A program made the position numbers and the translations under genes. Positions 904-20,312 of a stretch of 24,082 nucleotides of DNA are shown one piece after another (position 1 is the first letter of the stretch; every line of letters begins with the position of its first letter). Source of the DNA: a virus (Duplodnaviria; Heunggongvirae; Uroviricota; Caudoviricetes); IMG/VR virus record IMGVR_UViG_3300028840_000472; one strand, given 5' to 3'. The notes under the pieces were generated by a model. The model was not told where the DNA came from and searched no databases. It was given only the letters and a program-made list of their open reading frames with translations.

Positions 904-918
904 GTTCTCCCCCTGTGG

Positions 919-2656: not shown

Positions 2657-2659
2657 AGG

Positions 2660-3295
2660 TCACACTTTCAGCTTCGCGCTAACGATGAACCCCATGCCAT
2701 CGTCCGCGTCTTCGTATACAATGCCGGGGATCTTGTCGTACTGCGTAGCCCACGCCAGCACTTCGTAGCCGTGGTCGTTCAGCAGCTGTTCAAACTCCTG
2801 CCGGGTATAGTGACGAAAATGGAAAGGATGCGAAGCCTTGTTGAAGGGTACGATCTGTTCGTTCGGTACAGACGCGACCAGATACGGTGCGGTTTCCGCG
2901 TAGCGGTGAATCAGTGCAGACGCATGTTCGACATGCTCAATCGTTTCTATCGAAACTATGACGTCTGCCGTTATATCGGCAACCGCGTTTGTCCACTGCT
3001 CAGGATTGCCAAGATCCACTGCTGCGAATGAATTGTTAGAAATGCCGTAAGCACGACGCGCAACCTCGACTGCTTTCGGTTCAATGTCGAAGCCGTGCGC
3101 GTGTCCGTTCTCGAACGCATCGGCAAGCATTAACGTCCCGTAGCCCACGCCGCACGCGCAGTCGATAATCACCGGGTCATCTTTTTCGATGTCCCGCTTG
3201 ATCATGTCGATCGCGAACTGGTATCTGTTCCTGTGGTTCGGCTTGATACCGTCGAGTGTTTCCGCGACCTGTCGTTCACCTGTTTGTGGCAGCAT
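2660..3295 (-). CDS. Class I SAM-dependent methyltransferase (211 aa)
   Basis: Motif I IIDCACGVGYGT, HGFDIE, DVIVSIETIEHV, VASVPNE. The N-terminal H..RYQFA pattern is common in methyltransferases of glycan clusters. Confidence 0.85.
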   Translation of the reverse strand: MLPQTGERQVAETLDGIKPNHRNRYQFAIDMIKRDIEKDDPVIIDCACGVGYGTLMLADAFENGHAHGFDIEPKAVEVARRAYGISNNSFAAVDLGNPEQWTNAVADITADVIVSIETIEHVEHASALIHRYAETAPYLVASVPNEQIVPFNKASHPFHFRHYTRQEFEQLLNDHGYEVLAWATQYDKIPGIVYEDADDGMGFIVSAKLKV

Positions 3296-4307: not shown

Positions 4308-4315
4308 GTTTCCCC

Positions 4316-5077
4316 CTATGCAGTTTTCTGCGTCAGTTCATGTTCGTGCGATTTGCCGTTTTCCTTGCGCTGCGGTCCCTTCATGTGATCCATGAATTTA
4401 CCCAGCACGGAATCGTTGAACGGATGGTTCGACTTTTCGTCCGTGGTTAAATTCACGCGCGACACATTGAACAGCTTGATCAGGTAGTCGAGAACGTAGC
4501 AGTCGTGCCACTCGCCCAGCAGCTTGAACGACCCGTTAAAGTATGTCGCCATGAACAGTTCCATGAACGTCTTGTTCACGGAATGCTTCGTGTTGAACGC
4601 GACGAAACCGGTTTCGCTGTACAGCCATTCGCGTTGCAGATGCGCGATGTATGTACTGTCCTGCACAAGTGTGCGCAGGAAGTTCTGCGGCATCGTGTTA
4701 TGGAAGTACACGTCGGCATCGACCCACGCGACACGATCGTCGGCAGTCTCTTCGGTGCACGCGTGAAACATGCAGAACACCTTCCGGTAGAATCGATTCA
4801 CATCGAAGCGGAAGTTGTACGCGTTCTTCCCATCCGGCATTCGAATGATGCCGCTGAACATGGGATCGCTTTCCTTGACGACGTTTTCGAACTCGACGAA
4901 ATCAGGGAAGTCGTACAGGTTCACGTACTCGACGCGTTCATCACGCGGCGCACTGGTCGGTATGCCGCGCTCGTAATAGACGCGCAGCTTTTCATCGGTC
5001 CAGTGTTCTAGGAACGTTTCGATAAAACGCTTCCCGTAGTCGTGATACCCCTTCTGGCTGAACGACGTTATGATCAT
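4316..5077 (-). CDS. Putative nucleotide-sugar transferase, GT-A fold (253 aa)
   Basis: IITSFSQKGY..YGKRFIETF, RFYRKVFCM, DxD motif (AWVDADV), YSETGFVAFN, EWHDCYVLD, MDHMKG.RK. Confidence 0.7.
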   Translation of the reverse strand: MIITSFSQKGYHDYGKRFIETFLEHWTDEKLRVYYERGIPTSAPRDERVEYVNLYDFPDFVEFENVVKESDPMFSGIIRMPDGKNAYNFRFDVNRFYRKVFCMFHACTEETADDRVAWVDADVYFHNTMPQNFLRTLVQDSTYIAHLQREWLYSETGFVAFNTKHSVNKTFMELFMATYFNGSFKLLGEWHDCYVLDYLIKLFNVSRVNLTTDEKSNHPFNDSVLGKFMDHMKGPQRKENGKSHEHELTQKTA

Positions 5078-7578: not shown

Positions 7579-8484
7579 TTATTTGCCAAACGATGCACAG
7601 CTGTTGAGAAAATCGTCGTCCTTGTGCACAAGCTTCGACGGAAGTGTGTCGCCAAGAAATACGATGTCGTTCGGACGCTTCTTTGCAAGTTTCGCAAGTG
7701 CGACGCCCGATGCCAGCATGTCAGGTCTGGTCATCCATGGCTTGCCATCGACAACGCCGTTGTCGCACATGTCGACGCCCTCGCGATGTGCGGGACCGTC
7801 GGCGTACATTGTTTCGTCCTTTCTCCACCCACAATCGGTTCCCGCCAGAATAACTTTACGGGCACCCATGAAAAATGCGGCGGACACCGCACGATTGACG
7901 ACGTTATAGCCGCCGCCCATGCAGGTAGATGTTGCGAATAGTTCGTTATACAGCTTGACTTCGTTTTCGTAACCCGTCGCGCTGTGGAAGATGATCACGT
8001 CTTCGTCCTTCAGGTAGTCGAACAAAGCGGGATCGGAAGATGAAGCGATGATGTGTTTCGTCCCCGGTGCCTTGAAGATCTTGTTCGGCTTCGCGATGTG
8101 CGCGCCGGGGTCCATGCTCACGCCATAGTCGACCTTGAAGCCGGCGTCGTGCAGGATCTTGATCGCGGCCTTGCAGCCGAAGATGATCGCGTCTTCTTCG
8201 TCGACTGCCTTGCGGATGCTGGCGATGACTTCGGGATCGTTCAGGGTCGGACCGGATCCGGCGACCACGACAACAGGGCCGACGCCGTCCTTCTTCAGTT
8301 CGTCCTGTTTGTAACAGGGCATCCCGGCCTTGTGCAGTTCGCCGGCGTGCTTGATGTTCCGATCGTAGTTGTCGACGTTCGGGTTGACGAACTTGATTTT
8401 CTTGTTCGGGTTTTCACCCGGTGCCGGCTGGTTGATGGTCAGATGACGCGCATGAACCGGCGGCGTGATAGGCGCTGCTATCAT
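7579..8484 (-). CDS. DUF115 / MptE-like / Maf-type putative glycosyltransferase (301 aa)
   Basis: VVVVAGSGPTL, AAIKILHDAGFKVDYGVSMDP, GGGYNVVNRAVSAAFFMGARKVILAGTD match the DUF115 (Maf_flag10) motif order. GGAG RBS. Confidence 0.7.
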   Translation of the reverse strand: MIAAPITPPVHARHLTINQPAPGENPNKKIKFVNPNVDNYDRNIKHAGELHKAGMPCYKQDELKKDGVGPVVVVAGSGPTLNDPEVIASIRKAVDEEDAIIFGCKAAIKILHDAGFKVDYGVSMDPGAHIAKPNKIFKAPGTKHIIASSSDPALFDYLKDEDVIIFHSATGYENEVKLYNELFATSTCMGGGYNVVNRAVSAAFFMGARKVILAGTDCGWRKDETMYADGPAHREGVDMCDNGVVDGKPWMTRPDMLASGVALAKLAKKRPNDIVFLGDTLPSKLVHKDDDFLNSCASFGK

Positions 8485-8913: not shown

Positions 8914-9285
8914 TCAAATACCTACGTCAAATCGCATCTGTTCCTTGCCGGCTTCGTGCGCGGCCCGGTTCTCCCGAACCTGCAGATCGTGCATGACGCC
9001 CCAGACGCCCATGTATGCCCGATGCCGGGGTTCGTCTTCGATCGGGATGCTGCCCTTGAAGTTTGTATAGTCGATATTCGCCAGCCTGTCAGCCAGCACT
9101 TCCGCGACCATTTCACGCGGCACGAATGCCCGGAACAGGTAATCCGCCGTCACGTCCGTGAACGTTTCGATCAGCGGGAACGTCCGTTCGATGTCGCCTT
9201 CGCGGCGCGCACGGACCAGCAACGTAGCCGGGTCGTCCCGGTTCTCCACGATAGACAGCATGGCGTCGTTCATAAATATCCACAT
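8914..9285 (-). CDS. Conserved-looking hypothetical protein (123 aa from MWIFMND; the track starts at 9300); candidate immunity protein
   Basis: MWIFMNDAMLSIV..LLVRARREGDIE..ADYLFRA..IDYTNFKGSI..AYMGVW. A GGAGAAC SD precedes ATG 9285. Second gene after the MuF fusion. Confidence 0.75.
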   Translation of the reverse strand: MWIFMNDAMLSIVENRDDPATLLVRARREGDIERTFPLIETFTDVTADYLFRAFVPREMVAEVLADRLANIDYTNFKGSIPIEDEPRHRAYMGVWGVMHDLQVRENRAAHEAGKEQMRFDVGI

Positions 9286-9311
9286 TGTGCAGTTCTCCAT
9301 TTTCAGTTCTG

Positions 9312-9677
9312 TTAGCGTAACCCCAGATCCTGTTCCTTCGCACGCTGATAAGCTTCTTCACGCGTGCACCGATCGTTACCCTTCTTCCACTGCTTCCATT
9401 CGTACCAGTCGAAGAAAAGCGGATCCGTATCATCGATGACATTTATTCTAGCGCTGCCGATCTTATATGGCAACCTGTCCGAAAGTTCACCCTCGACAAC
9501 ATGGTACGGCATACCGGTCAGCTGCATGTCGCAAAAGCCTACATCTACAAACAGGATCCCATTCGGATGATCGAAGACTTCCGCGATCACGCGCCGGTTA
9601 TCGGGATCGATTTCAATCACCAGCGGTTCGCGACCTTCGTCGATAATGCGCTGCATATTTTCGACTTGTTTTGACAT
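9312..9677 (-). CDS. Hypothetical protein (121 aa from MSKQVEN; the track starts at 9728); candidate cognate immunity protein of the MuF C-terminal domain
   Basis: ATG 9677 overlaps the TAA of the 2392-aa gene (TAATG). Acidic, globular-looking sequence. Confidence 0.7.
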   Translation of the reverse strand: MSKQVENMQRIIDEGREPLVIEIDPDNRRVIAEVFDHPNGILFVDVGFCDMQLTGMPYHVVEGELSDRLPYKIGSARINVIDDTDPLFFDWYEWKQWKKGNDRCTREEAYQRAKEQDLGLR

Positions 9678-12600
9678 TACCACCCTATCACTTTCACAAT
9701 TTCGTCGAGCGAACGACCGTCCGGCCATTCATTGATGCCGTGCTTCTTAAACAAGCGTACCACAGTTTTCTTTTGCGATTCGCTTTTGACGTTGATACTT
9801 TCCAGATCATCGAAAATCGACAAGCTGTTCTTGAAGATCGTTTCGTTACCGCCGGACCCCGCCGTTTGCTTCCATTCTTCGATGCCCGTCTTGCGGTTGC
9901 GCTGAACGTATTGACCCTTCACCTTGCCGAACGCGTCGTGGTTATAGCTGATCGAATCCAGCCGGCGAAGATGATCGGCCTTCCAGACGAAGCCGGAATT
10001 CTGTGCCGCGCTGTTCGCGGTTTTTATGCGCGTGAAGAAATACGACGCGCCACCTGTGCCCATGTCGGACGATGGCGACATACCGCCGATCGGTATGCCG
10101 CGTCGCAGCTTGTCTGTCGTCGGTGCCATCTGCCCGCCGCTGTTCAGGATCGCTTCGAGCGACGACACGATGTCGCCCTGCGTGATGCTGTGATGCAAGC
10201 GGTAGTTCTCCGCGAAGTCGTCCCATTCCTTGCCGAACAGATCCGGGCGCATAAGATGCCGCTGTCCGTGCCCGAACGCCTGATACTGGCCTTTGAAGTT
10301 ATACATGGGTAGTTCGGTTACATCCCTACCGATCGCCGCGCTAACAAGATCACGCGCACGCTGAACGCGCTTTGCAGGATCCTTGATACGGTTAATCGAC
10401 GCATTGAAATCACCGAACCCTTCGCGACGGTGCGCCATGATTTGCCGCAGATATAGTTCTTCAGCATCGAAGTCTGTCGCGCGGTCGACGTTAATGCCAA
10501 GCTTGCGCAGTGTATTCAGCGCCTGTTCGTGTGTCTTGCCCGGTGCGATAACTTCCAGCCTGTTCTTAATAGCGAACACCTGATCGTTGTCCATGCCGGC
10601 CCAGTAGCGCACAGTGACGTCGTCGATCGTGGTTTCGTACATCGTGCCCCATTCCGACGACCCGCCTTTCACGCGTGCTATACCGTTGTTCACGTCCTTG
10701 TGTTCGAACTCGCCGCGACGCTTCGTCCACTTGATCACGTCGTCGTCTGCGGCCTTCTTTGCGACAGGCTGTAGCGTGCCCATCCTGCCGGTGTTGAAAA
10801 GCTTGTCACCGAACCAGTGCTTTTCGATCTTGTCGTCGGCGTCGTAATAAATCACCGCTTCCTTGATCGCGTCAATCCATTCGTCGTATGTACTGTCGAA
10901 CGTTTTCAGAACAGCGCGATCCAGCGTGCCTTCATTGATCGCGTCAGATATTTGCTTGCGTATTTTCTTTGACGCCTGCAGCGCATCGTTCAATCGCGTT
11001 TCGATTGTATTGTCGAACGTGCCGCCAGTCTCCACGCGGTGCTTCAGACCGATGATCGATTTCTTTATCAGGTCGTCCAGCGGTGCCGTTTCGATAGACG
11101 GCAAGCCGGAATTCGATGCACGCCCGACAGCACGATCCAGACCTTCAGCGGCATCACCGCGCAGCTTCATCTGCAGCATCGAACGCGGATCCCCGTTCGC
11201 GTCTAGTTCCTTCCATGCCAGTACGGCTTGATCTTCGATCGCGTCCTTGTCGCGGTGCAACACGTAACCGTTCAGGCGCGCGTCTTCGATCTGCTGAACC
11301 TCGAAGTCGGTGACGTCCTTGCCAGTATCCTTCGGCGGCGCTGCCGGCTTGCTTTCTGGTGCCTTGCGCGTCGCCCGGATCTTGAAACGTTGCTTGATGT
11401 ATTTCTTGCGCGCGATCAGTGTTTCGATCAATTCTTCTGCAACCTCTACATCGCGCGGCCCGTACAGCAGGACAAGCTGCCGGATCTCTGCGTCGCTTAT
11501 GTTTGCGACACGGCGCGCGCTTTCCTTCAGCTGCGCGTCGGTCAGGTCGCCGAACACGGATGCCGACTGGCTGTTCGTGGACGGGTTGCGAAGGGAATCG
11601 ATTTCGTCGACCGTCTTGCCGAACGCCTTGCCCTTCAGTCCGCCCTGTGCGCGATAGCGCAGTGCGCCGCCTGTGTCGATGCGTATGGCGCGATTCGCTT
11701 TCACTAGCAGGTTATCATAGCCAAGACCCACAACGTCCCAGTTGCCCAGCCACGCGTCCGCTATGAAGCCATCGCCGACGCCCGACACCTTGCCGGCTTT
11801 CAGTGCCGACGGATTCGACTGCAGTCCATCGATAATCTTTGACGCGACGGACGGCTTCCCGTTGCGCGTGACGATGTGCAGTTCAGGGACTTCGATCCCC
11901 ATCTTTTCATAAAGCTTCGCGGCTAGGACTTCATTCCGCACCATGTCTTCCGACACTGGCGTCTTCACGTACCACTTGATCCCGGTTTCGGGATCCTGAT
12001 ACATCGCGCCGGAATTCGATCCGCCCTGCCCGCCGATCTGGTTCATGTCTTCGGCATTCGGCGGCGTATCTGTCTTCGGTGTCTTGACCTTCGTTTTCGA
12101 CTGGTCTTCCGCGATGTCCGCTGCGACCTTCACAGACGGGGCGTCCTTTGCGACAGTATTACCGCCCGCCTTGATGGCGTCTTCGGCAGCTTCCTTGCTT
12201 TGGATCAGCTTCTTCAGTGCGGCAGCATCGACGTCGATCTGTTCGTCGATCTGCGACGCTGTCAGAAGATCCCAGATTTCCTTGTCTGCCGGTTCAGTGC
12301 CCAGCAGCTTCGACGCTTTCTGGTGAAACGCAAGTTCGTCAAGTTCGCCGAAGCGGAAGTCGTGCAGGACGTCTTCGGCATCGTCAACGATCTGCGCGAC
12401 AGTAACAGACTTCGACGCTTTCGCGGCTTCCTTGCCGACCGCTGTCAACGTGTCATCGAAGTCGGGGATGTCTTCCCACTTCTTCGTCTGCAGGAACTTC
12501 TGCAACGCTGCGTCGTCCGTGGTCAGCGTCAGCATTTTGCTTTCCATCTTGTCGACGAATTCGTCGATCTTTTCGGAAAACAAAAAGTCGTCCAACGCCT

Positions 12601-15600
12601 TGCCCTTCGGGAAGTCGTCAGCTTCGACGAACAGCTTCTGCAGTACCGCGCTTTTATCAAGCTGGTTCGAGAATGACGGCGTAAGATCCGACAGAGTGTC
12701 GTACTCGACTACTACGTCGTCCATGGTCTTCTTGTAGGTAGTCGCTTCGATCGGGCCGGCCTGCGGTTCGACCTTCTCGACAGTTACCTTTGCCTTGCCG
12801 AAGTCGACGTCCGCAGGTTTCGCCATCTTCGCAGCGACGGACACATTGTCTGTGACGTTCTGCATTTCGACACTAAGCTTCGACATTTTCGCCAGCTTCG
12901 CCAGTTCATCGCCGGCGATGTCTTCAAGCGCCGAATACGCGGTCGGCTTTTTACCCAGAAAAGTTTCATACTTGTTGACAAGAAAAACAAATTCGTCGAC
13001 GTCGATTGAATCGATCTTCGGTAGCACTTGTTCGATTTCGATGTAGTATTCGAAAGCCTGACTTTGTACGGCGTTGATGTTCTCGCCTTCGATGTCGACT
13101 GCTGTCTTCTTCGCCGGTCGTACCTTCTTCGCCTTTGCGACGTCAACGTCGTTAATTGTTTTCGATGCCAGATGCTTCGCCAGTAGCTTGTCGTCGTCTA
13201 GGACGGCATTCAGCTTCGGCATGATTGTTTTTATGAACGTTTCCATTTCGATGTCTGACATGCTTATGAAATCGTCGTATGTCAGCGCATCATCGAAGTA
13301 CGGCTGCGTCGTCTTGATAATCTTCATGACGTTGACGCTATCAAGATCGCCGACGTCTATGTCGTCCATGAACTTCGCCATCGCGATTTTAACGTTATTC
13401 GCGACAGGAATAGCAGCGACGCCGGTTGCCTTCGGCACATCTGTGTACGACTGGTTCGCCATAACCTTGTTGAACCATTCGTCATTCGACTGCAGTGTCT
13501 TGGTCTTCAGGTACGCGTCCTGCAGGAATAGCTTCAGCTTCTTCGCAGCCTGCACGCTTTCCAGCGGATCGATAGCCGGTGCCGTAATGAACCCGCCTAG
13601 TTCATCGTTCAGAATTTTGGACGCGTCCATCAGGTTGTCAACATTAAGCGGGTTCTTTTCGACGTAGTCCGTGAACTTCTTCATCTTGCGCTTCAGCACG
13701 GAACCGGAAACCGACGGCGCTAGATCCAGCGTTACATCGACGACGTCGAACGACTTGTGCTGCAGGAAGTTCTTCAGGGCGTCGTCATCACCGAGCAGCG
13801 TCGTGATCTTACCGGGTAGATCATTCAGGAAGTTCTTCGCAGCCGGCGCGCCTTCCGTAATCGCGGACACAGGGATTTCCATCTTCCACCCCATCTTGTC
13901 CGTGAACACGTTGTAGTCGAAGCCCTTGCCGGCGATAGTGTCTTCGACTTCAAGACTTGCTTTCAGGAACTTCAGTTCTTTCTTTGCTTTCTTGAAGTCA
14001 GCTTCAAGCGCTTTCTGTGCACGCGCGGCTGTCTTTGCCGCGACTTTTTCTAGCAGGCTGTCACGGTGCCCGATCAACATGCCCTGCTTCCATGTCGCAA
14101 GCAAGTCGACGTCGTTGTTCTTTTTCAGCGTGTCGATCGCTGCATCCATTGCGGTCAGTATCCCGTGTTCAGGGACAGTCCCGTCAGCTGTCGACATCTT
14201 GATGTAGATCTGTTTGAACTTCTTGTCAGGTATCTTGCCCGGTGCCTTGTACTTCTTCACCAGTGCGTCGTATTCGTCTAGCGCTTCTTTCGGCGTGACC
14301 TTCGATGCGACAGCGTTGTCGGCAAGTTTCTTGTCGATCTCTTTGACGATCTTGACCTGCTTCGCGTCGTCCAGTTCGTTGAAGATTTTCTGCGCAGCCG
14401 GCGGCGGCACCTTGCCGGCGATGATCGCTTTCTTGTAGTTGACGATGCCGTCGCTGATCTTCTTCGCAGCCTTGTCGATCTCGACCTGCTTCGCGATGGC
14501 TTCCAGAATGTCGGTATCGTTCAGTCCGTCAAGCGCGCCCTGCTTCTTCAGCTTGTCATACGCGCGCTTCTCGAACGTACCCTTCTGCGCCTTGATGGTT
14601 TCCAGCTGCTGCTTCGCTTCGACTGCGGCCTGCTGTTGCGCGGCCTTCTCTGCGGCTGCTTTCGCTGCGGCCTGCTGCGCGGCGATCTTCTGTTCGATCT
14701 CTGCGCGTATTAGTTTCTTTTCCGCGATCGGCAGCGAGTTATACGAAGCCTGCACGCCCTTCGACGGTTTGATGCCTTTTGCGACTTGGTCCTTGTACTT
14801 TGCCAGATCATCGGCAAGCTGCTTCGCCTGTTGTTCAAGTGACACTCCCCCTTTGCCGATCATCTTCGGCTTCGCGCCTTGGTTGTCGTAGAACTCCCAC
14901 TTCTTGAAGTGCTTTTTCATCTGGTCCCAGTGCACTTCGTTGACCTTGTTCGCCAGTATCACTTCCGGCGGTACGAAGCGACCGCTGAAGTCTTTCTTCG
15001 GACCGACGAAACGCTTCACCGCACGCAGTGCCGCTTCCTTGCGCGGGACGTGCATGTAGTAGCCGTGTATGTCGTAGCCTGCTTTCTTGAAGCGGTCGAT
15101 CCACTTCAGCGGGGTGTTAATCCCCTTCATCGTGATGTCGTGCGCGACATTAAGCCCCAGACGTTCCGCAATGGACGTCGCCCGGTTGATGATATGCAGA
15201 CTTTCTTCGTGAAGTGTTGCGGCGTTGAAGCCCTTGTATTCGGGCAGCAGCTTTTTTATTTCATCCGCGTCAAGAACAATGGTACTGTCTTTGTCGACAG
15301 CGCCGATCCCGCCGTTCTTTTTCGGCGTCGTGAAAGACCCCTTTCCGCTTCCGCCACGACCGCCAAAAACTGAATAGATCGGCTTTTCGCCAGCATCGGG
15401 GGTAGCAGCCGCGACGCGTTTCTTCGTGAAGATCTTCCGAAGGATGTCGTCGTGGACGTCTTTCTTTCTGCTTGCGCTCCATGTGCCGTCGGTATTGCGG
15501 TAAATGGATGCGGTCGTCGCTTGCTTCTGCAAACTGGCGGCAGTGTCTTCCAGTGCCGCGACCGTCGTGTCGTCAAGTTGTGCATAAATGTCCTGCTTTG

Positions 15601-16855
15601 AAACCGGTTCGTCGAACGCTTCATACCACTGTTTCCCCGATTTGAATTTCGTATCGGCGATCTTCAGATGGTCGGTCGCTTCTGCTAACGCTTGCTCTAA
15701 CGTCAACGTCGGCGCACCTGTTTTCTTTAACAGCGCATCGATCGGCAGCGGGTTATGTGACTGGTCTATCATGTCACGTAGCGACAGCTGCCCGGATTGC
15801 CACAAGCGGAACTTCGTCGATCCTAAGACGTCCAGCTGGAACTGTGGCGACTGCTGTCGCAGCCAGTCTTCGTAGTCCAGCTTGTCGGATACTGCACCAT
15901 TCATCGAAGCGCGCAGTCCGTCGCGCTTGCGCGGCGCTATGGTCTGCAGCTTCTTCTTGATCTTCGGGTTTTTGGTTAGCTCGCTGAATGACTTCATCAC
16001 AGGGACAAGTGTCGACCTGCAGTTGAAGTGCGCCGGCGGCGGACCCTGCCATGCCGATGTCGTTCCCGGCAGCTTCTTCCCGTCCATGTCCCATGCTTGC
16101 TGATCCAGTGCGATGCAGATGTCGGTCGTACGCCCGTCCAGCGTAGACAGCCACTGCATCCCCTTGATCACGTCCTTGTTCCGCTGGTACACGGATTCGC
16201 GCGCCTTGTTGGCTGTCGCAAGTACCGATGATCGTACCAGTGTCTGCGCCTGCCGGCGGCTGGCGTGCATGATGCCGTCCTTGAAACCAGCCGCAGCGGT
16301 GCCCCTGACACGTCGCGACAGCTGGTCAATCGTTTCGCCAGCCAGTAAACCTTCGCGCATTTCTGCAAGGAATGCGTCTTGAAATGCCGGTATCTGTTTG
16401 CTGAACCACTTGTCGAACGGCGCGCCTTCGATCATCGCGCGACCCGGTAACAGCTTCAGGATGTCCGGCGATATTTTTTTGAAACCAAGATCGACAGTCA
16501 CCGCGTGCTTCAGTTCGTTCAACATGATTTCCTGCTGAACGCCCGCGACCTTTGTCAGCTGCGAATTCGCCGTGTCGGTGATCTGCTTGTATGCCTTGCT
16601 GACAGTCGGCGCGACGGACCCGGTCAGCTGGTTCAGCTTCTTGTTAACGGCGGCAACAGACGCGCCCTTCGCGGTGCCGGCTGCGTTGATCTTGCGAATG
16701 ATGTCGCCCTGCATTCCGTTCAGGGTCGAAAAGATTTCCTTGCGCAGCGCAGCGTCAAACCGAAGCAGATCGATGTCGTGCTTCAGCAGTGCCTTCGCTA
16801 GTGCGGTGTTAAAATTATCCGCCACGCTTCGACCGTACCGCGTCCAGCGGTTCAC
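9677..16855 (-). CDS. Giant MuF (SPP1 gp7-like) minor head protein fused to zeta-like kinase, atypical kinase and probable ADP-ribosyltransferase domains (2392 aa; the start may be GTG 16825)
   Basis: Uninterrupted 7.2-kb ORF upstream of scaffold and MCP. MuF signature WLSTLDGRTTDIC...PPAHFNCRSTLVPV. See the domain entries below. Confidence 0.9.
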   Translation of the reverse strand: MNRWTRYGRSVADNFNTALAKALLKHDIDLLRFDAALRKEIFSTLNGMQGDIIRKINAAGTAKGASVAAVNKKLNQLTGSVAPTVSKAYKQITDTANSQLTKVAGVQQEIMLNELKHAVTVDLGFKKISPDILKLLPGRAMIEGAPFDKWFSKQIPAFQDAFLAEMREGLLAGETIDQLSRRVRGTAAAGFKDGIMHASRRQAQTLVRSSVLATANKARESVYQRNKDVIKGMQWLSTLDGRTTDICIALDQQAWDMDGKKLPGTTSAWQGPPPAHFNCRSTLVPVMKSFSELTKNPKIKKKLQTIAPRKRDGLRASMNGAVSDKLDYEDWLRQQSPQFQLDVLGSTKFRLWQSGQLSLRDMIDQSHNPLPIDALLKKTGAPTLTLEQALAEATDHLKIADTKFKSGKQWYEAFDEPVSKQDIYAQLDDTTVAALEDTAASLQKQATTASIYRNTDGTWSASRKKDVHDDILRKIFTKKRVAAATPDAGEKPIYSVFGGRGGSGKGSFTTPKKNGGIGAVDKDSTIVLDADEIKKLLPEYKGFNAATLHEESLHIINRATSIAERLGLNVAHDITMKGINTPLKWIDRFKKAGYDIHGYYMHVPRKEAALRAVKRFVGPKKDFSGRFVPPEVILANKVNEVHWDQMKKHFKKWEFYDNQGAKPKMIGKGGVSLEQQAKQLADDLAKYKDQVAKGIKPSKGVQASYNSLPIAEKKLIRAEIEQKIAAQQAAAKAAAEKAAQQQAAVEAKQQLETIKAQKGTFEKRAYDKLKKQGALDGLNDTDILEAIAKQVEIDKAAKKISDGIVNYKKAIIAGKVPPPAAQKIFNELDDAKQVKIVKEIDKKLADNAVASKVTPKEALDEYDALVKKYKAPGKIPDKKFKQIYIKMSTADGTVPEHGILTAMDAAIDTLKKNNDVDLLATWKQGMLIGHRDSLLEKVAAKTAARAQKALEADFKKAKKELKFLKASLEVEDTIAGKGFDYNVFTDKMGWKMEIPVSAITEGAPAAKNFLNDLPGKITTLLGDDDALKNFLQHKSFDVVDVTLDLAPSVSGSVLKRKMKKFTDYVEKNPLNVDNLMDASKILNDELGGFITAPAIDPLESVQAAKKLKLFLQDAYLKTKTLQSNDEWFNKVMANQSYTDVPKATGVAAIPVANNVKIAMAKFMDDIDVGDLDSVNVMKIIKTTQPYFDDALTYDDFISMSDIEMETFIKTIMPKLNAVLDDDKLLAKHLASKTINDVDVAKAKKVRPAKKTAVDIEGENINAVQSQAFEYYIEIEQVLPKIDSIDVDEFVFLVNKYETFLGKKPTAYSALEDIAGDELAKLAKMSKLSVEMQNVTDNVSVAAKMAKPADVDFGKAKVTVEKVEPQAGPIEATTYKKTMDDVVVEYDTLSDLTPSFSNQLDKSAVLQKLFVEADDFPKGKALDDFLFSEKIDEFVDKMESKMLTLTTDDAALQKFLQTKKWEDIPDFDDTLTAVGKEAAKASKSVTVAQIVDDAEDVLHDFRFGELDELAFHQKASKLLGTEPADKEIWDLLTASQIDEQIDVDAAALKKLIQSKEAAEDAIKAGGNTVAKDAPSVKVAADIAEDQSKTKVKTPKTDTPPNAEDMNQIGGQGGSNSGAMYQDPETGIKWYVKTPVSEDMVRNEVLAAKLYEKMGIEVPELHIVTRNGKPSVASKIIDGLQSNPSALKAGKVSGVGDGFIADAWLGNWDVVGLGYDNLLVKANRAIRIDTGGALRYRAQGGLKGKAFGKTVDEIDSLRNPSTNSQSASVFGDLTDAQLKESARRVANISDAEIRQLVLLYGPRDVEVAEELIETLIARKKYIKQRFKIRATRKAPESKPAAPPKDTGKDVTDFEVQQIEDARLNGYVLHRDKDAIEDQAVLAWKELDANGDPRSMLQMKLRGDAAEGLDRAVGRASNSGLPSIETAPLDDLIKKSIIGLKHRVETGGTFDNTIETRLNDALQASKKIRKQISDAINEGTLDRAVLKTFDSTYDEWIDAIKEAVIYYDADDKIEKHWFGDKLFNTGRMGTLQPVAKKAADDDVIKWTKRRGEFEHKDVNNGIARVKGGSSEWGTMYETTIDDVTVRYWAGMDNDQVFAIKNRLEVIAPGKTHEQALNTLRKLGINVDRATDFDAEELYLRQIMAHRREGFGDFNASINRIKDPAKRVQRARDLVSAAIGRDVTELPMYNFKGQYQAFGHGQRHLMRPDLFGKEWDDFAENYRLHHSITQGDIVSSLEAILNSGGQMAPTTDKLRRGIPIGGMSPSSDMGTGGASYFFTRIKTANSAAQNSGFVWKADHLRRLDSISYNHDAFGKVKGQYVQRNRKTGIEEWKQTAGSGGNETIFKNSLSIFDDLESINVKSESQKKTVVRLFKKHGINEWPDGRSLDEIVKVIGW
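9680..10230 (-). other. Probable ADP-ribosyltransferase-fold C-terminal domain (approximate bounds)
   Basis: RLHHSIT ... AILNSGGQM ... GGASYFFTR ... NETIF gives the H / IL.SGG / YF / E order seen in HYE-clade and DarT-like ARTs. Recognised by pattern only. Confidence 0.5.
11380..12050 (-). other. Atypical kinase domain, HipA / PI3-PI4-kinase-like fold (approximate bounds)
   Basis: Gly-rich loop GGQGGSNSG, beta3 Lys WYVK, helix-C Glu RNEVLAAKLY, catalytic loop DAWLGNWDVVGLGYDNL, DFG-equivalent RIDTGG. Confidence 0.72.
14850..15490 (-). other. Zeta-toxin-like P-loop kinase domain (approximate bounds)
   Basis: FGGRGGSGKGS Walker A (about 15335-15365), IVLDADEIKKLLPEY, LHEES, FKKAGYDI...VP..EA..RA..RF...GRFVPPEVI, WEFYDN. 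Confidence 0.82.
15720..16300 (-). other. MuF / Phage_Mu_F domain (approximate bounds)
   Basis: AQTLVRSS, QWLSTLDGRTTDICIALD, PPAHFNCRS (HFNCRS near 16014-16031), YEDWLRQQ...VLG..KFRLWQSG. Confidence 0.92.
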
Positions 16856-17003
16856 GTGCGAACGGGTTATCTTCCTTCAGCCGCTTGCCTTCAGCTGCTG
16901 CACGTTCCCGGCCTTGCGCGCCACAGTACACGCGACCGCTGTGTCCCCACTGGAAGCACTCACGCCCGCGTCGCATCGGATCCTGTACCTTGCGTACTCG
17001 CAT
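16815..17003 (-). CDS. Small basic hypothetical protein (62 aa)
   Basis: GAGGGG SD; CFQWGHSGRVYCG..GRERAAAEG motif; overlaps the MuF start region. Confidence 0.6.
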   Translation of the reverse strand: MRVRKVQDPMRRGRECFQWGHSGRVYCGAQGRERAAAEGKRLKEDNPFAREPLDAVRSKRGG

Positions 17004-17005
17004 TG

Positions 17006-18019
17006 CTACCCCTCTCTGTCTCGCATGATCTGCATAAACAGCGCGAGTATTTCCGCATCGTCTTCGTCGACGTGCGGTGCCGTGTCGTGCAGGATTGCAC
17101 TGACCGACCCGCCGAATATGCCCAGATTCAGCGCAGCCTCTACACGTACCACGATCCGGTAGTCGTCCGAATCGAACCAGTACGTCGCCGCGCCGCCGAT
17201 GTCTGCTACTGCGACAGCCCTGTGCGAGTGTTCCCGGTAGTCCGCCGGCAGATGCCTGATCGACGCTTCGCCGTAGACCTGTCCGGCCTTCGTTGCGACA
17301 TGGTCGTGCGTCCGGGGTGTCGTATTTTGTACGACAGTCGTTTCTTGTACGACCGGCTGCGGTGCCGGTTCTGTCTTCGGTGCCGGTGCTGGTGCCGGTG
17401 CTGGTGCCGGCTGTACCGGCGCTGGCGCTGGTTGCGGTGCCGGCCTGACCTTCGGCCCCTTGTGCGGCCTGCCCGCCCAGTGCAGGGCGTCGGCTTCGCC
17501 GCCCATGCGCGCCGTCAGTTGCGACACGTGCACGAAGTCGCCCGGATGGTAGACACGTGCGACAGTGTTGCTGCGGATCTCTACGGCGTGCGCCGGCCTG
17601 CCGGGGTATAACGTGCCCTTGTCAGCGTAAACGTCGCTGACAAGCCCCAGCAGGGCGCGTGACGACGCTTTCTGCAGGGAACTGTAGCCGGTGTCGCTGA
17701 TCCCGGTGACAAACAGGTCAAGCGCGGACCGGATTTCGTGCTGTGCGATCTGTGCGCGGTCAAACTCGACACGCGTCTGGTCGAACAGTTCGACCCACAG
17801 CGGCGATACGTGTTCATGCAGCCGGGGGTATTCAAGAACAAACCGTTCGCCCGGTGCGCGGTAGCGCGAGACACCGCCCGTCGGCTGTGTGACAGGAACT
17901 TCCGGTTCGACGACTGCTTCTGCCGGCTGCAGCGCGCCGTTCGTTGCGACAGTAAGCGGGAACGCGGTCAGGACGCCGACAGTCGCCAGCGTTAGCGCGC
18001 GATTCTTGAACGTCGCCAT
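17006..18019 (-). CDS. Hypothetical protein with signal/anchor-like N-terminus and Pro-Ala linker (337 aa from MATFKN; the track starts at 18109)
   Basis: TGATG coupling at 18017-18021. KNRALTLATVGVLTAFPLTVA hydrophobic stretch; 30-aa PA-rich linker. Confidence 0.7.
   Translation of the reverse strand: MATFKNRALTLATVGVLTAFPLTVATNGALQPAEAVVEPEVPVTQPTGGVSRYRAPGERFVLEYPRLHEHVSPLWVELFDQTRVEFDRAQIAQHEIRSALDLFVTGISDTGYSSLQKASSRALLGLVSDVYADKGTLYPGRPAHAVEIRSNTVARVYHPGDFVHVSQLTARMGGEADALHWAGRPHKGPKVRPAPQPAPAPVQPAPAPAPAPAPKTEPAPQPVVQETTVVQNTTPRTHDHVATKAGQVYGEASIRHLPADYREHSHRAVAVADIGGAATYWFDSDDYRIVVRVEAALNLGIFGGSVSAILHDTAPHVDEDDAEILALFMQIMRDREG
17354..17443 (-). repeat. Pro-Ala low-complexity repeat; GGTGCCGGTGCT 12-mer x2.7 at 17379-17410
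   Basis: Encodes PAPQPAPAPVQPAPAPAPAPAPKTEPAPQP. Confidence 0.85.
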
Positions 18020-18237
18020 CAGTGCGCCCTGTCTTCGTCGTGCGCGATGTCGTATTCGATCTGCGTTGCCAGTTCGCGCAGCATTTCGATGACCTGCGTC
18101 CGGTCGCAATCGATCGGCATTTGCCCGCTGAAGAAGCGCAGCGGCTGGTCACTGAACGCGATATTCAGCGACAGCTTGCCGTGCAGTTCGTCGCCTTCGA
18201 CGGGGTGTTCGTAGATGTTTATTTCGTGCAGCATCAT
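18019..18237 (-). CDS. Small acidic hypothetical protein (72 aa from MMLHEI; the track starts at 18363)
   Basis: ATGATG at 18232-18237 overlaps the upstream TGA, and its own TGA overlaps the next ATG. Confidence 0.6.
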   Translation of the reverse strand: MMLHEINIYEHPVEGDELHGKLSLNIAFSDQPLRFFSGQMPIDCDRTQVIEMLRELATQIEYDIAHDEDRAH

Positions 18238-19622
18238 GTCCGTGTAATTGTAATCGACTGATCCGGTGTGCCTGTTATCGACTGCGTCACGCTTGCGCCC
18301 GCAGTGCGTGTGCTGGTTGTCGTCAGCAGCGGGTTGACAGGATCCAGACCAAAAATCTGCCATAGTTCGGTAAGCTTTTCGGACTGCGCCGCAGTCAGAC
18401 CGCCCGTCGTTGCAACCATTTCATCGATGACCGTTGCGCCGTTGCTGTTGTCGGTTAGCTTGCCCACACCACGACACACGATCGTGCCGGCGGTGCAGGT
18501 CGACGCGATAATGATCTGACCCGCGCCCAGATCCAGCGAGATATTGTTGTTCGCCGTGTTGTTCTGGATCGTGATGCCGCCCCAGTATTGCCGAAATCCC
18601 AGATCGACGTTTTTGCCGTTCATGTCGATGATCGGTGTCGACGTGCCGGGTTGCCCGCTAAAACAGTTCAGGAAGTGCGACGAATTCGCGCCGGTAATCT
18701 GCACGGTGCCGGGGTTCAACATGCACTGGTGTGCGACACCTTGGAAGCCGGTCACGTTTTCCAGTACCGCTTCGCGACACACTACCCAGCCGTCCAGTGT
18801 TGCGTTGCGCATATACAGTTCGCGGAACTGCGTATTCGTCGTCGATACATTCGCCGATGTTTGCAGTTGCACCTTCAGCGGATGGTCGCCTTCAATCAGG
18901 TAGCCGCCGGCATCGGTGCCGGATGTCAGCACGCCTTCGCTTAACATGCGAACGACCGTCCGGCTTTCCCGGTCTGCGATGGTGAATGCGTCGGCGAAAT
19001 TGTTCACCGGGTAGCGATGCGTGCCCAGCGGAATGTTCGTGCCGGCTGTGCCCAGATCCCCATCGAAGTGAATGTGCGGTCCGAACATCTGCGAGCGCAT
19101 GACTTCGCCGTAGCTGCTGGACGCGACGGCTGTCGTGACCTGCGCGTTCCAGACGGCGGAAGCAATCGCGGTGTTGTCCGTGGTTGCCGACACGGTTGCC
19201 GACACGACGACAGACACCAGCTGTTCCGCGACCGTCTGCGTCAGCTGTGAACGTTCCAGAATCGTCGCTACGGTATGGATGGCAGATGTCGCAACGATCA
19301 GCGTATCGGCTGCGTTAATCGGGTACAGGTTGCCCGTGATGGTCAGTTCGTGGTCGGCGTCGTACGGCTGCACCTTCCAGCCCAGATCGGTTCGCAGGAA
19401 GTAGTAGTCGCCGGCTTCCAGACCGCCGCCCAGATCTTCGCCGCCGATCGTGGTGAACGGGAAGTCGAACTTCTGCAGATCTGCATCGCCGTTCCAGTCT
19501 TCTTTCGCGTCGCTGTACAGATCGACCTGTGTATCGATCGACACCTTGTCGTTCACGTCAGGCGCGACCAGATCCAGCCGGATTGTAAACGTCGACGTAT
19601 CAAACGTCGCCTTTGCGCCCAT
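18234..19622 (-). CDS. Virion structural protein, tailspike/beta-helix-like (462 aa)
   Basis: IHFDGDLGTAGTNIPLGTHRYPVNNFADAFTIA resembles the pre-beta-helix motif of spikes and is followed by short G/N/T/I-rich beta rungs. The N-terminal module is shared with the 810-aa protein. Confidence 0.6.
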   Translation of the reverse strand: MGAKATFDTSTFTIRLDLVAPDVNDKVSIDTQVDLYSDAKEDWNGDADLQKFDFPFTTIGGEDLGGGLEAGDYYFLRTDLGWKVQPYDADHELTITGNLYPINAADTLIVATSAIHTVATILERSQLTQTVAEQLVSVVVSATVSATTDNTAIASAVWNAQVTTAVASSSYGEVMRSQMFGPHIHFDGDLGTAGTNIPLGTHRYPVNNFADAFTIADRESRTVVRMLSEGVLTSGTDAGGYLIEGDHPLKVQLQTSANVSTTNTQFRELYMRNATLDGWVVCREAVLENVTGFQGVAHQCMLNPGTVQITGANSSHFLNCFSGQPGTSTPIIDMNGKNVDLGFRQYWGGITIQNNTANNNISLDLGAGQIIIASTCTAGTIVCRGVGKLTDNSNGATVIDEMVATTGGLTAAQSEKLTELWQIFGLDPVNPLLTTTSTRTAGASVTQSITGTPDQSITITRT

Positions 19623-19625
19623 GTC

Positions 19626-20009
19626 CTATTCCTGCTGCGTGAATGCAGTAGGCGAGCAGATCCGCTTCTGTCGTGTTATGCCGTCATCGCATAACTCGCT
19701 GATCATGTCGAACTTGCCGCCCTTCGCTTCCCATTCGAACATCGAAACAACCTTCAGGGGATCGTTCGGTGCGATGTCCCAGCTGAACGTAAACTGTTCC
19801 AGCGTGTCGCGCCCTTCCAGTTGTGATTCGATAAGCTTCTTCAAGCCCTTGTCGAACTCGTTGCGACCCTCACGTATGCGGAAGATACGGTAGCGTATTT
19901 GCCGCCGCATGTGCCGCCGCATACGCGGGTTCGCTGTCTGCGCCTGCATCTTCAAATCGATCAAGTGATCAGCTTCTTCGTCTGTCAGTTTTTCTTTAAG
20001 TTCGGTCAT
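19626..20009 (-). CDS. Hypothetical protein (127 aa from MTELKE; the track starts at TTG/upstream 20063)
   Basis: GGGGA SD, TAG-CA-ATG junction; R/K-rich helix followed by FTFSWDIAPNDPLKVV. Confidence 0.65.
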   Translation of the reverse strand: MTELKEKLTDEEADHLIDLKMQAQTANPRMRRHMRRQIRYRIFRIREGRNEFDKGLKKLIESQLEGRDTLEQFTFSWDIAPNDPLKVVSMFEWEAKGGKFDMISELCDDGITRQKRICSPTAFTQQE

Positions 20010-20011
20010 TG

Positions 20012-20212
20012 CTATCCCCAGATTGAAACCGGAACAAAGTCGGTCAAGGCAGCGTTTTCGCATTGCGTCTGTGCAGCATCCTCTAAGCTGTCAAACTTCG
20101 CCGCGAAAAGTCGTTCAGTCGTCCAGTTGCATTCGCCAATAGACGGACCGGCGTAGTATACAGATCCGCCGTTATTCGTGCGCGGATCGTGTGCCTTGCG
20201 TAGTACCCACAT
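20012..20212 (-). CDS. Small hypothetical protein (66 aa from MWVLRK; the track starts at 20350)
   Basis: AGGGA SD before ATG 20212. This start avoids overlap with the 810-aa gene. Confidence 0.55.
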   Translation of the reverse strand: MWVLRKAHDPRTNNGGSVYYAGPSIGECNWTTERLFAAKFDSLEDAAQTQCENAALTDFVPVSIWG

Positions 20213-20312
20213 AACTTTGTCCCTGAATTTATGCACCCGTATTGCGACGCGATGGAACGGGGCAAACCACCGGAGGAAGCACGCAGGGGAACGTGCTTTG
20301 CGCCTAAGCTGC

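What the first reader, a model, noticed from the sequence alone, without database searches (positions are those of the whole stretch)
9677..16855. 2392-aa MuF head protein stacking three different putative enzyme domains
Seen: one open 7.2-kb ORF with an N-terminal MuF domain, then a zeta-like P-loop kinase, a long helical repeat linker, a HipA/PI3K-like kinase, an unassigned domain of about 380 aa and an ART-like C-terminus. Known: SPP1 gp7/MuF proteins are packaged at low copy near the portal and accompany DNA ejection, and MuF polymorphic toxins typically carry a single C-terminal toxin followed by an immunity gene. Inferred: this is a virion-delivered multi-enzyme effector that could hit a nucleotide or sugar-nucleotide, a protein or lipid, and an NAD-dependent target at the moment of infection. 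It may serve host takeover or anti-defence rather than simple killing.
Basis: partly seen in the sequence, partly recalled or inferred. Interest (0 to 1): 0.85.

Follow-up and report, generated by a model that had tools for sequence, protein, structure and literature searches.

The report
Giant phage head protein carrying three enzymes
A complete 88-kb marine phage encodes a 2392-residue head (MuF) protein that strings together a zeta-type kinase, a HipA/PI4K-like kinase and a DarT-like ADP-ribosyltransferase, most likely cargo injected into the host with the DNA. The delivery principle is already described, but this widespread enzyme block has not been studied.

Summary
Window 9677-16855 (-) is one open 2392-aa frame. 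It was assembled identically, as ~88-kb contigs, in runs of two different studies, one or both of which may be the window's own source.

Domains, in order:
- MuF / SPP1 gp7 domain, above the Pfam cut-off.
- Zeta_toxin P-loop kinase, above the cut-off, with the Walker Lys and the catalytic Asp in place.
- A K/A/D-rich linker of about 900 aa, only weakly repetitive.

The block is one of the commonest MuF payloads: 5193 cluster representatives match. A homologous, translationally coupled gene of about 121 aa follows it in five loci examined.

What is special here is the added zeta domain, present in 3 of 240 relatives, and the long private linker.

The best reading is a capsid-packaged, DNA-co-injected multi-enzyme effector, that is, a "polyvalent protein" in the sense of Iyer 2017. 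Targets are unknown.

This scan has already found the MuF-kinase-DarT-like cassette on other DNA, in at least 13 genomes. I class it as a new variant of a known kind, of moderate interest.

The parts
9677..16855 (-). Whole ORF, 2392 aa from the GTG (2382 aa from the GTG at 16825 used by the public gene call); stop codon TAA at 9677-9679
15491..16822 (-). MuF / SPP1 gp7-type minor head (head morphogenesis) domain, aa 12-455; Pfam core aa 164-283
   Evidence: PF04233 43.3 bits (cut-off 29.6), TIGR01641 41.7 (39.65), PHROG 241 E 7e-91. 33% identical to the head morphogenesis proteins of Vibrio MAR10-like phages.
14786..15448 (-). Zeta-toxin-like P-loop kinase, aa ~470-690. Walker A is GGSGKGS (K505); D531 aligns with zeta D67.
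   Evidence: PF06414 61.6 bits (cut-off 22.3). Alignment to zeta 1gvn_B. Motifs conserved in P0003 and P0039.
12074..14785 (-). K/A/D-rich, Arg-poor linker, aa 691-1594. The first ~180 aa (684-865) are homologous to the post-MuF linker of shorter relatives. Aa 870-1590 have no relatives. There is a weak internal repeat, 1009-1185 against 1433-1598.
11321..12073 (-). Atypical kinase domain (CtkA / PI4KII / HipA-like), aa 1595-1845. Gly-loop 1608-1616. K1631, E1642, D1700 and D1707 are invariant; N1705 and D1727 are in at least 98% and N1715 in 88% of 89 relatives.
10247..11320 (-). Unassigned middle region, aa 1846-2203: a curved beta-sheet split by a three-helix bundle, then helices leading into the ART core. 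G1863, D1869 and E1874 are invariant; R1860, N1862, D1875 and K1897 are in at least 94%.
   Evidence: Model pLDDT 93.6. Only generic helical-bundle matches, plus repeated weak CYTH/TTM-like hints.
9680..10246 (-). DarT-like (H-Y-E class) ADP-ribosyltransferase-like domain, aa 2204-2392. H2222 ends a strand, R2251/R2252 lie in the loop, Y2272 and E2338 each start a strand.
9312..9677 (-). 121-aa partner gene, translationally coupled: TAATG overlaps the stop of the giant gene. Candidate inhibitor, immunity protein or chaperone of the middle+ART module.
   Evidence: Sequence. Homologues directly downstream in L004, L005, L006 and phage Pan1. Family of 35 clusters. Complex prediction gave weak support, 0.46 against a best control of 0.02.
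8914..9300 (-). 128-aa conserved small gene of the head module. It is probably not specific to this effector.
   Evidence: 61% identical to L004:9251-9637. Homologues follow a 531-aa NUDIX protein in other phages.
16815..17003 (-). 62-aa Arg/Cys-rich ORF that overlaps the 5' end of the giant gene. Small ORFs occupy the same position in related loci.

Best explanation
The gene encodes a capsid-internal MuF (SPP1 gp7-type) minor head protein that acts as a carrier for enzymatic cargo, a 'polyvalent' effector.

Inferred life cycle:
- It is made late, together with the scaffold and capsid proteins.
- It is packed in a few copies through its N-terminal MuF domain.
- It is released into the next host cell together with the DNA.

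It brings three catalytically intact-looking enzymes:
1. A zeta/PezT-type P-loop kinase, whose likely substrate is a nucleotide or nucleotide-sugar.
2. A CtkA/HipA/PI4KII-like atypical kinase, most likely a protein kinase.
3. A DarT-like H-Y-E ADP-ribosyltransferase. It is physically integrated with an unassigned middle domain and may modify nucleic acid or protein using NAD+.

Enzymes 2 and 3 plus the middle domain form one conserved block of about 800 aa. That block is a very common MuF payload. The zeta domain and the private linker of about 900 aa are lineage-specific additions in the variable slot between MuF and the block.

The coupled 121-aa gene product probably binds the middle+ART part in the producing cell. 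It would keep that part inactive, or help fold or package it.

What is shown: the domain identities, residue conservation, synteny and distribution. What is inferred: packaging, injection, the substrates and the partner's role.
For: Domain identities:
- MuF and zeta match above their curated cut-offs.
- The block model is confident, pLDDT 92.8 and pTM 0.87, so the domain packing is confident too.

Catalytic residues:
- Across 89 relatives the catalytic-type residues are invariant or nearly so: kinase K1631, E1642, D1700, N1705, D1707, D1727; ART H2222, R2251, Y2272, E2338.
- The zeta Walker Lys K505 and D531 (= zeta D67) are conserved in all three zeta-bearing relatives.

Context:
- The gene lies in a head module with the scaffold and major capsid genes downstream. 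The same synteny holds in a relative.
- In Mu-like phages the short form sits directly after terminase and portal.

Distribution and variability:
- The block matches 5193 cluster representatives at E<=1e-3 and 1492 at E<=1e-30.
- The slot between MuF and the block holds zeta, NUDIX, ART-PolyVal, ADPrib_exo_Tox or inteins in different relatives. This is polyvalent-protein behaviour.

Virion evidence from a relative:
- A 2146-aa protein of Yersinia phage fHe-Yen8-01 with the same kinase domain is annotated 'phage particle associated protein'.

Partner gene:
- It is conserved downstream in five loci, including the kinase-less MuF-middle-ART protein of phage Pan1.
- The complex prediction passed weakly. 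The score was 0.46 against a best control of 0.02. That mark was reached by 58 of 80 solved complexes and 2 of 110 mismatched pairs. At 0.60 or under, only 7 of those 80 reached it, and so did both mismatches that passed. The runs agree in at least 68% of contacts, and the partner's pLDDT is at least 78.

Literature:
- MuF-zeta fusions and head-packaged effectors are described in PMC5512222. MuF toxins with downstream immunity genes are described in PMC5576092. The MuF-type ART Bxa is neutralised by a small binding protein, Bsi (PMC11699363).
Against: - There is no direct evidence that this protein is in virions or is injected.
- Neither the DarT Pfam model (PF14487) nor any other Pfam ART model matches the sequence. 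HipA_C is sub-threshold. The kinase and ART assignments therefore rest on predicted structure plus motifs.
- The H-Y-E triad was placed from conservation and the model's secondary structure, not from a residue-level superposition.
- The portal gene is 11.6 kb upstream, not adjacent.
- A 2392-aa protein must pass the portal and tail channel unfolded or after processing. No cleavage site was identified.
- Jamet et al. found MuF toxins only in temperate phages. This complete genome has no integrase or resolvase.
Confidence: 0.7

Rival explanations
1. The protein is a classical MuF polymorphic toxin. The payload's main role would be to kill or arrest competing or superinfected bacteria that lack the cognate immunity protein, rather than to take over the phage's own host. 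The 121-aa gene would be the immunity gene.
For: The layout is an N-terminal MuF domain, C-terminal toxin-like enzymes, and a small gene directly downstream and translationally coupled. That gene is conserved with the block. This matches the definition in PMC5576092 and the Bxa/Bsi precedent (PMC11699363). Zeta and DarT are bona fide toxins in TA systems. Many short relatives sit in Mu-like, temperate-type phages.
Against: This complete 88-kb genome with direct terminal repeats has no integrase or resolvase. No lysogen would therefore exist to carry immunity. A small partner is equally expected as a producer-cell inhibitor of an injected effector. Three stacked enzymes and variable internal payloads fit the polyvalent-effector pattern better (PMC5512222).
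Confidence: 0.15
2. The enzymes act in cis on the phage itself. They would modify phage DNA, for example by ADP-ribosylation as an anti-restriction mark, or modify virion proteins during assembly or at ejection, rather than host targets.
For: DarT enzymes modify DNA bases (PMC11543638). MuF/gp7 proteins lie beside the packaged DNA near the portal (as cited in PMC5576092). The phage carries an unusual set of modification genes around the head module: an MptE-like gene, an epimerase and a methyltransferase.
Against: NAD+ and ATP are not expected inside capsids. The low copy number of MuF proteins argues against stoichiometric genome modification. No ADP-ribose-removing enzyme (macro or NADAR domain) is present in the genome. 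There is no direct evidence.
Confidence: 0.08
3. The extension is mainly structural: a long internal head or ejection protein that spans the envelope or sets DNA packing. The enzyme-like domains would be vestigial or only binding modules.
For: The ~900-aa charged linker has no relatives and no recognisable fold. The middle domain has no enzymatic assignment.
Against: Catalytic residues of all three enzyme domains are invariant or nearly invariant across relatives that are only 27-54% identical overall. That indicates selection for catalysis.
Confidence: 0.07

Closest known systems
Polyvalent proteins and MuF-fused effectors of phages (Iyer, Burroughs, Anand, de Souza, Aravind 2017, PMC5512222; Iyer et al. 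2022, PMC9503650)
   Same: A large multidomain protein in a virion-gene context. An N-terminal MuF domain is followed by several conflict-type enzymes. The paper explicitly mentions zeta-toxin-like kinases fused to MuF, kinase domains in polyvalent proteins and head-packaged ARTs. The middle slot carries variable payloads.
   Different: [quoted passage not shown] The polyvalent kinases described there are a clade that lacks the C-lobe, mainly from Verrucomicrobia/Chlamydiae and Bacteroidetes. I found no description of the conserved kinase-middle-DarT-like block or of its 121-aa partner. I did not read the supplementary files.
MuF polymorphic toxins (Jamet et al. 2017, PMC5576092) and Bxa/Bsi of a Bacteroides stercoris prophage (PMC11699363)
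   Same: An N-terminal MuF domain, a C-terminal toxin-like enzyme and a small gene directly downstream. Bxa is an ART that is neutralised by a small binding protein.
   Different: Those proteins carry a single toxin domain and are reported only in temperate phages. Here there are three enzyme domains in an apparently integrase-less 88-kb phage. Ct_MAD, their domain for unassigned C-terminal extensions, was built from families that hit the C-terminal region of COG2369. It is probably not this block, but I did not compare the two.
DarT1/DarT2, the DNA ADP-ribosyltransferase toxins of DarTG (PDB 7OMU, 7OMV, 8BAQ, 7YK3; Pfam PF14487)
   Different: There is no match to the PF14487 profile. There is no macro or NADAR antitoxin. 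The domain is fused to a kinase and a middle domain, and it is encoded by a phage rather than by a host defence system. The substrate is untested.
CtkA (H. pylori JHP0940), HipA, PI4KIIα and CotH atypical kinases
   Different: HipA_C is below its cut-off for this protein. Sequence identity to any solved kinase is 20% or less. The substrate class (protein, lipid or other) is unknown.
Zeta/PezT toxins (PDB 1GVN, 2P5T), and the MuF-zeta fusion in cyanophage PSS2
   Same: PF06414 matches above its cut-off, with the Walker A Lys and a D67-equivalent Asp. The 'head morphogenesis' protein of cyanophage PSS2 contains a homologous zeta-like segment.
   Different: The Walker A reads GKGS, as in adenylate kinases, not GKT. 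The domain is internal rather than terminal. No epsilon/PezA-like antitoxin was recognised. The substrate is unknown: UDP-GlcNAc for zeta, and NAD for AvrRxo1 according to an earlier unchecked note of this scan.

Membership tests
MuF / SPP1 gp7 minor head protein (PF04233, TIGR01641) | Profile match above the curated cut-off | tested here: met
   PF04233 43.3 bits against 29.6; TIGR01641 41.7 against 39.65; PHROG 241 E 7e-91
MuF / SPP1 gp7 minor head protein (PF04233, TIGR01641) | Encoded in the head-morphogenesis module (portal - MuF - scaffold - capsid) | tested here: met
   The scaffold and major capsid genes lie downstream. The portal is on the same strand but 11.6 kb upstream. In Mu-like relatives it is directly adjacent.
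MuF / SPP1 gp7 minor head protein (PF04233, TIGR01641) | Present in the virion at low copy and ejected with the DNA | not testable with these tools
   This needs virion proteomics. The only indirect support is that a giant protein of Yersinia phage fHe-Yen8-01 with the same kinase domain is annotated as particle-associated.
Zeta toxin family (PF06414) | Profile match above the cut-off, with the Walker A Lys and the catalytic Asp (zeta K46/D67) | tested here: met
   61.6 bits against 22.3. K505 and D531 align with zeta K46 and D67 in the 1gvn_B alignment. Both are conserved in P0003 and P0039.
Zeta toxin family (PF06414) | Adjacent epsilon/PezA-type antitoxin | tested here: inconclusive
   No downstream small gene has a Pfam hit. 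The 128-aa gene also occurs beside zeta-less NUDIX proteins.
HipA / PI3-PI4 kinase-like atypical kinases | Kinase fold with the ATP Lys, the αC Glu, the catalytic-loop Asp/Asn and the metal-binding Asp | tested here: met
HipA / PI3-PI4 kinase-like atypical kinases | Pfam HipA_C (PF07804) match above the cut-off | tested here: not met
   14.2 bits against a cut-off of 30.5. Three relatives have a precomputed PF07804 hit. I therefore file it as 'works like', not as a member of HipA_C.
DarT (PF14487) DNA ADP-ribosyltransferases | Sequence-profile match to PF14487 | tested here: not met
   No match at E<=10 anywhere in the phage genome. None of the 89 C-terminal domains hits any Pfam ART family.
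DarT (PF14487) DNA ADP-ribosyltransferases | ART fold closest to DarT, with an H-Y-E triad and an NAD-loop Arg | tested here: met
DarT (PF14487) DNA ADP-ribosyltransferases | Paired macrodomain (DarG) or NADAR antitoxin | tested here: not met
   No Macro or NADAR match in the complete genome. An unrelated 121-aa partner is found instead.
DarT (PF14487) DNA ADP-ribosyltransferases | ADP-ribosylation of ssDNA bases | not testable with these tools
   A biochemical assay is needed.
Polyvalent proteins (Iyer et al. 2017) | Two or more effector-type domains in one polypeptide, encoded among virion or packaging genes of a phage | tested here: met
   There are three enzyme domains plus MuF in a head module. 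Relatives carry variable payloads.
MuF polymorphic toxins (Jamet et al. 2017) | MuF N-terminus, C-terminal toxin domain and a small downstream immunity-type gene | tested here: met
   A TAATG-coupled 121-aa gene is conserved with the block. Its immunity function is untested.
MuF polymorphic toxins (Jamet et al. 2017) | Carried by a temperate phage or prophage | tested here: inconclusive
   No tyrosine or serine recombinase was found in the complete DTR genome. Other lysogeny modes were not excluded.

The most novel reading that the evidence does not exclude
The conserved kinase-middle-DarT-like block would be a previously unrecognised virion-delivered nucleic-acid ADP-ribosyltransferase machine. 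On entry it would ADP-ribosylate host DNA or RNA, or mark the entering phage DNA. The fused kinase and the CYTH-like middle domain would act on the same substrate or adduct. The 121-aa partner would hold it off in the producer cell. In this phage, a zeta-type kinase would be added to deplete or modify a nucleotide cofactor at the same moment. This would turn the anti-phage DarT chemistry into a phage weapon.
Probability: 0.18. Interest if true: 0.8.

Novelty: new variant of a known kind. Interest (0 to 1): 0.55.

Why it matters
Proteins injected with phage DNA act before any phage gene is expressed. They are therefore prime candidates for first-line counter-defence and host takeover.

The kinase-middle-DarT-like block matches thousands of sequence clusters from uncultured phages and prophages, including Mu-like phages. 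No full-length copy was found among 50,697 deposited phage records. I found no experimental study of it.

Three points make it directly testable:
- It has a conserved small partner gene.
- It can occur without the kinase, as in cyanophage Pan1, which is a cultured system.
- It is combined with further enzymes such as a zeta kinase.

If the ART targets nucleic acid, it would be a phage-side counterpart of the DarTG defence toxin.

Tried and rejected
- Near-identity DNA search against 50,697 phage records: no match.
- phmmer of aa 1540-2392, and a profile of the block, against PDB sequences: nothing, or only low-complexity helical hits.
- NCBIfam gave only the MuF model. PADLOC gave nothing.
- Pfam on all 89 C-terminal domains: only scattered noise.
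- The sub-threshold Pfam hits Fapy_DNA_glyco (aa 1212-1274, E 0.0055) and FliG_M were rejected as below their cut-offs.
- ESM Atlas feature searches of the middle domain and of the linker: no usable hit.
- BLASTP self-comparison of the linker found no repeat. Only a Smith-Waterman test against shuffles showed one weakly similar pair.
- The idea that the second small gene (128 aa) is a zeta-specific antitoxin was rejected. Its homologues follow a zeta-less 531-aa NUDIX protein elsewhere.
- Profile comparison of Pan1_16 with the partner family was inconclusive (probability 12%), and there was no direct BLASTP alignment to the window's copy. Pan1_16 does match the L005 partner at E 9e-12.
- The MAR10 terminase found nothing in this genome.
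- Ct_MAD of Jamet et al. was considered as a name for the block. It derives from the C-terminal region of COG2369, so it is probably a different domain.
- Literature searches for MuF+DarT, CtkA+phage and fHe-Yen8-01 gave nothing relevant.
- The Pan1 paper's supplement did not let me confirm detection of gp15 by mass spectrometry.


Full report
**The object**

Window 9677-16855 on the minus strand is a single open frame of 2392 codons starting at a GTG. The public gene call for the identical protein starts 10 codons later, at a second GTG, giving 2382 aa (P0002). A 62-aa ORF overlaps the 5' end.

The window belongs to an IMG/VR virus record of 88,061 bp with direct terminal repeats, rated 100% complete.

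The frame is not an assembly chimera:
- Runs from two different studies (sediment 2018, seawater 2021) each contain the whole 7.8-kb stretch in one ~88-kb contig with zero differences. One or both may be the window's own source.
- A third study holds identical fragments.
- Two relatives at about 50% identity (P0003, 2217 aa; P0039, 2535 aa) have the same order: MuF, zeta, linker, block.

**N-terminal part**

- MuF. Aa 164-283 match Pfam Phage_Mu_F (43.3 bits, cut-off 29.6) and TIGR01641. Aa 12-455 match PHROG 241 'head morphogenesis' (E 7e-91).
- Zeta. Aa 485-635 match Pfam Zeta_toxin (61.6 bits, cut-off 22.3).
- In the HMMER alignment to zeta toxin 1gvn_B, the Walker A lysine (K505, in GGSGKGS) and D531 align with zeta K46 and D67. 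Both are conserved in P0003 and P0039.
- The Walker A reads GKGS rather than GKT.
- Iyer et al. 2017 already note zeta-like kinases fused to MuF. The head morphogenesis protein of cyanophage PSS2 contains a homologous segment.

**Linker**

- Aa 691-1594 are rich in Lys (13.8%), Ala and Asp, and almost free of Arg.
- Aa 684-865 are homologous to the linker that follows MuF in the shorter relatives.
- Aa 870-1590 have no relative among the 240 family members retrieved, and no Atlas hit.
- Only segments 1009-1185 and 1433-1598 are detectably similar (z 6.5 against shuffles). 'Repeat linker' is therefore only weakly true. I could not model its helicity.

**C-terminal block**

Aa ~1600-2391 are conserved as one unit in more than 90 MuF proteins, mostly of about 1320-1700 aa. 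An exhaustive search gave 5193 cluster representatives at E<=1e-3 and 1492 at E<=1e-30. An AlphaFold2 model built on an 89-sequence alignment is confident, at pLDDT 92.8 and pTM 0.87.

Kinase (aa 1595-1845):
- Foldseek agrees, with CtkA at E 2e-5.
- The Gly-rich loop, K1631, E1642, D1700, N1705, D1707, N1715 and D1727 are invariant or nearly so.
- Pfam HipA_C is sub-threshold here but is recorded for three relatives.

ART-like domain (aa ~2204-2392):
- H2222 ends a strand, R2251/R2252 lie in the following loop, and Y2272 and E2338 each begin a strand.
- This reproduces the order of the ARTD H-Y-E motif and the NAD-loop arginine described for DarT (PMC11543638).
- The equivalences are inferred from conservation and secondary structure, not from a printed superposition.
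- The DarT Pfam model does not match, and no Pfam ART family does. This is 'works like DarT', not membership.

Middle region (aa 1846-2203):
- It was modelled separately at pLDDT 93.6.
- It is a curved sheet interrupted by a three-helix bundle. G1863, D1869 and E1874 are invariant, and R1860, N1862, D1875 and K1897 are nearly so.
- It stayed unassigned after five fold searches. Weak CYTH/TTM-like rows recur in three of them.

**Modularity**

- The kinase domain also occurs alone in many other giant proteins that carry ADPrib_exo_Tox, NUDIX or LPD38 domains.
- Among these are 'ADP-ribosyltransferase' proteins of ~90-kb Pseudomonas, Aeromonas, Yersinia and Escherichia phages. The Yersinia fHe-Yen8-01 protein is annotated as particle-associated.
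- Conversely, cyanophage Pan1 has a 927-aa 'head morphogenesis protein' with MuF, the start of the middle domain and the ART-like domain, but no kinase.
- In block-bearing relatives, the slot between MuF and the block holds zeta, NUDIX, ART-PolyVal, ADPrib_exo_Tox or inteins.
- Zeta occurs in only 3 of 240 retrieved relatives, counting this phage's own record (P0002); the other two are P0003 and P0039.
- No full-length copy of the block was found in 50,697 deposited phage records.

**Neighbourhood**

- Downstream lie a TAATG-coupled 121-aa gene, a 128-aa gene, a 62-aa ORF, an MptE-like gene, the scaffold gene and the major capsid gene.
- The same order holds in the locus of P0039.
- The portal gene is 11.6 kb upstream on the same strand. 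Large ORFs of unknown family lie in between.
- In two Mu-like phages the ~1320-aa form follows terminase and Portal_Mu directly.

**The 121-aa partner gene**

- A homologue lies directly downstream of the block gene, starting at or within a few bases of its stop codon, in L004, L005 and L006. BLASTP against the window's copy gives E 9e-9 for L004 and 5e-13 for L005. L006 aligns at 20% identity.
- Pan1 gene 16, which starts 35 bp downstream of gp15, is homologous to the L005 copy (E 9e-12).
- The partner therefore tracks the middle+ART part, not the kinase or the zeta domain.
- The family has 35 clusters and no Pfam match.
- A complex prediction of block plus partner gave weak support. The score was 0.46 against a best control of 0.02. 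That mark was reached by 58 of 80 solved complexes and 2 of 110 mismatched pairs. At 0.60 or under, only 7 of those 80 reached it, and so did both mismatches that passed. The runs agree in at least 68% of contacts, and the partner's pLDDT is at least 78. No interface was reported.

**The 128-aa gene**

It is 61% identical in L004. Its homologues also follow a zeta-less 531-aa NUDIX protein in other phages. It is probably a head-module gene rather than a zeta antitoxin.

**Lifestyle**

The complete genome has no tyrosine or serine recombinase, and no Macro or NADAR domain. The head genes are distantly related to those of Vibrio MAR10/SSP002-type siphoviruses. The runs that hold the sequence are marine sediment and seawater metagenomes.

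**Interpretation**

- Packaging and injection are inferred from SPP1 gp7/MuF biology and the polyvalent-protein concept (PMC5512222, PMC5576092), and from the particle-associated annotation of a protein that shares the kinase domain.
- The conserved partner parallels Bsi, which blocks the prophage ART Bxa (PMC11699363).
- With no sign of lysogeny, host takeover or counter-defence is more likely than interbacterial killing, but the latter is not excluded.
- Substrates are open. The nearest kinases are protein kinases (CtkA, HipA) but also lipid kinases. DarT enzymes modify ssDNA. Zeta-family enzymes phosphorylate nucleotide-sugars.

**Novelty**

- The class is known.
- I did not find the specific kinase-middle-DarT-like block, or its partner, in the papers I read.
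- This scan has reported the same cassette in at least 13 other genomes. My own tests agree with those notes.
- What this locus adds is the zeta insertion, the private ~900-aa linker and the integrase-less 88-kb phage context.

Noticed in passing
window 9312-9677 (-); L004:8824-9195; L005:9945-10310; L006:10002-10373; L007:4935-5267: A family of small proteins of about 110-123 aa, with no Pfam match, is encoded directly downstream of MuF proteins that carry the middle+DarT-like module. In four of the five loci its start overlaps or abuts the stop codon of the MuF gene. It is also present after the kinase-less version in the cultured cyanophage Pan1.
   Followed up: yes
window 16856-~28400 equivalent (G000:C1:56887-68517); window 17006-22745: The usual portal-MuF adjacency is broken. 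The portal gene lies 11.6 kb upstream at G000:C1:55520-56887. The gap holds large ORFs of 810, 462 and 367 aa with no PHROG or Pfam match.
   Followed up: partly
window 8914-9300 (-); L009:6001-6327: The 128-aa gene after the partner gene belongs to a small family. In other phages this family follows a 531-aa NUDIX-containing protein, probably a head morphogenesis protein. It looks like a conserved head-module gene of unknown role.
   Followed up: partly
window 7579-8484 (-) and 175-5077 (-): An MptE-like (PF01973) gene precedes the scaffold gene. A nucleotide-sugar epimerase, a methyltransferase and further genes follow the capsid gene. The relative L004 has the same arrangement, so a sugar-modification gene set is embedded in the head module of this phage group.
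   Followed up: no
window 16815-17003 (-): A 62-aa Arg/Cys-rich ORF overlaps the start of the giant gene. Small ORFs occupy the same position in L004 (50 aa) and L006 (91 aa).
   Followed up: no
L008:1222-7662 (Yersinia phage fHe-Yen8-01) and hits H1-H9: Cultured phages of about 86-95 kb from Pseudomonas, Aeromonas, Morganella, Yersinia, Escherichia and Enterobacter encode proteins that carry the same kinase-like domain (44-52% identity). In four of the nine records the gene is annotated 'ADP-ribosyltransferase'. The Yersinia phage protein is 2146 aa and is annotated as particle-associated.
   Followed up: partly
P0001 aa 1846-2125 (window ~10481-11320): The sheet of the middle domain gives weak but recurring similarity to CYTH / triphosphate-tunnel enzymes in three searches (Foldseek against the PDB, AFDB clusters, ESM Atlas). 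The similarity is too weak to assign a fold.
   Followed up: partly
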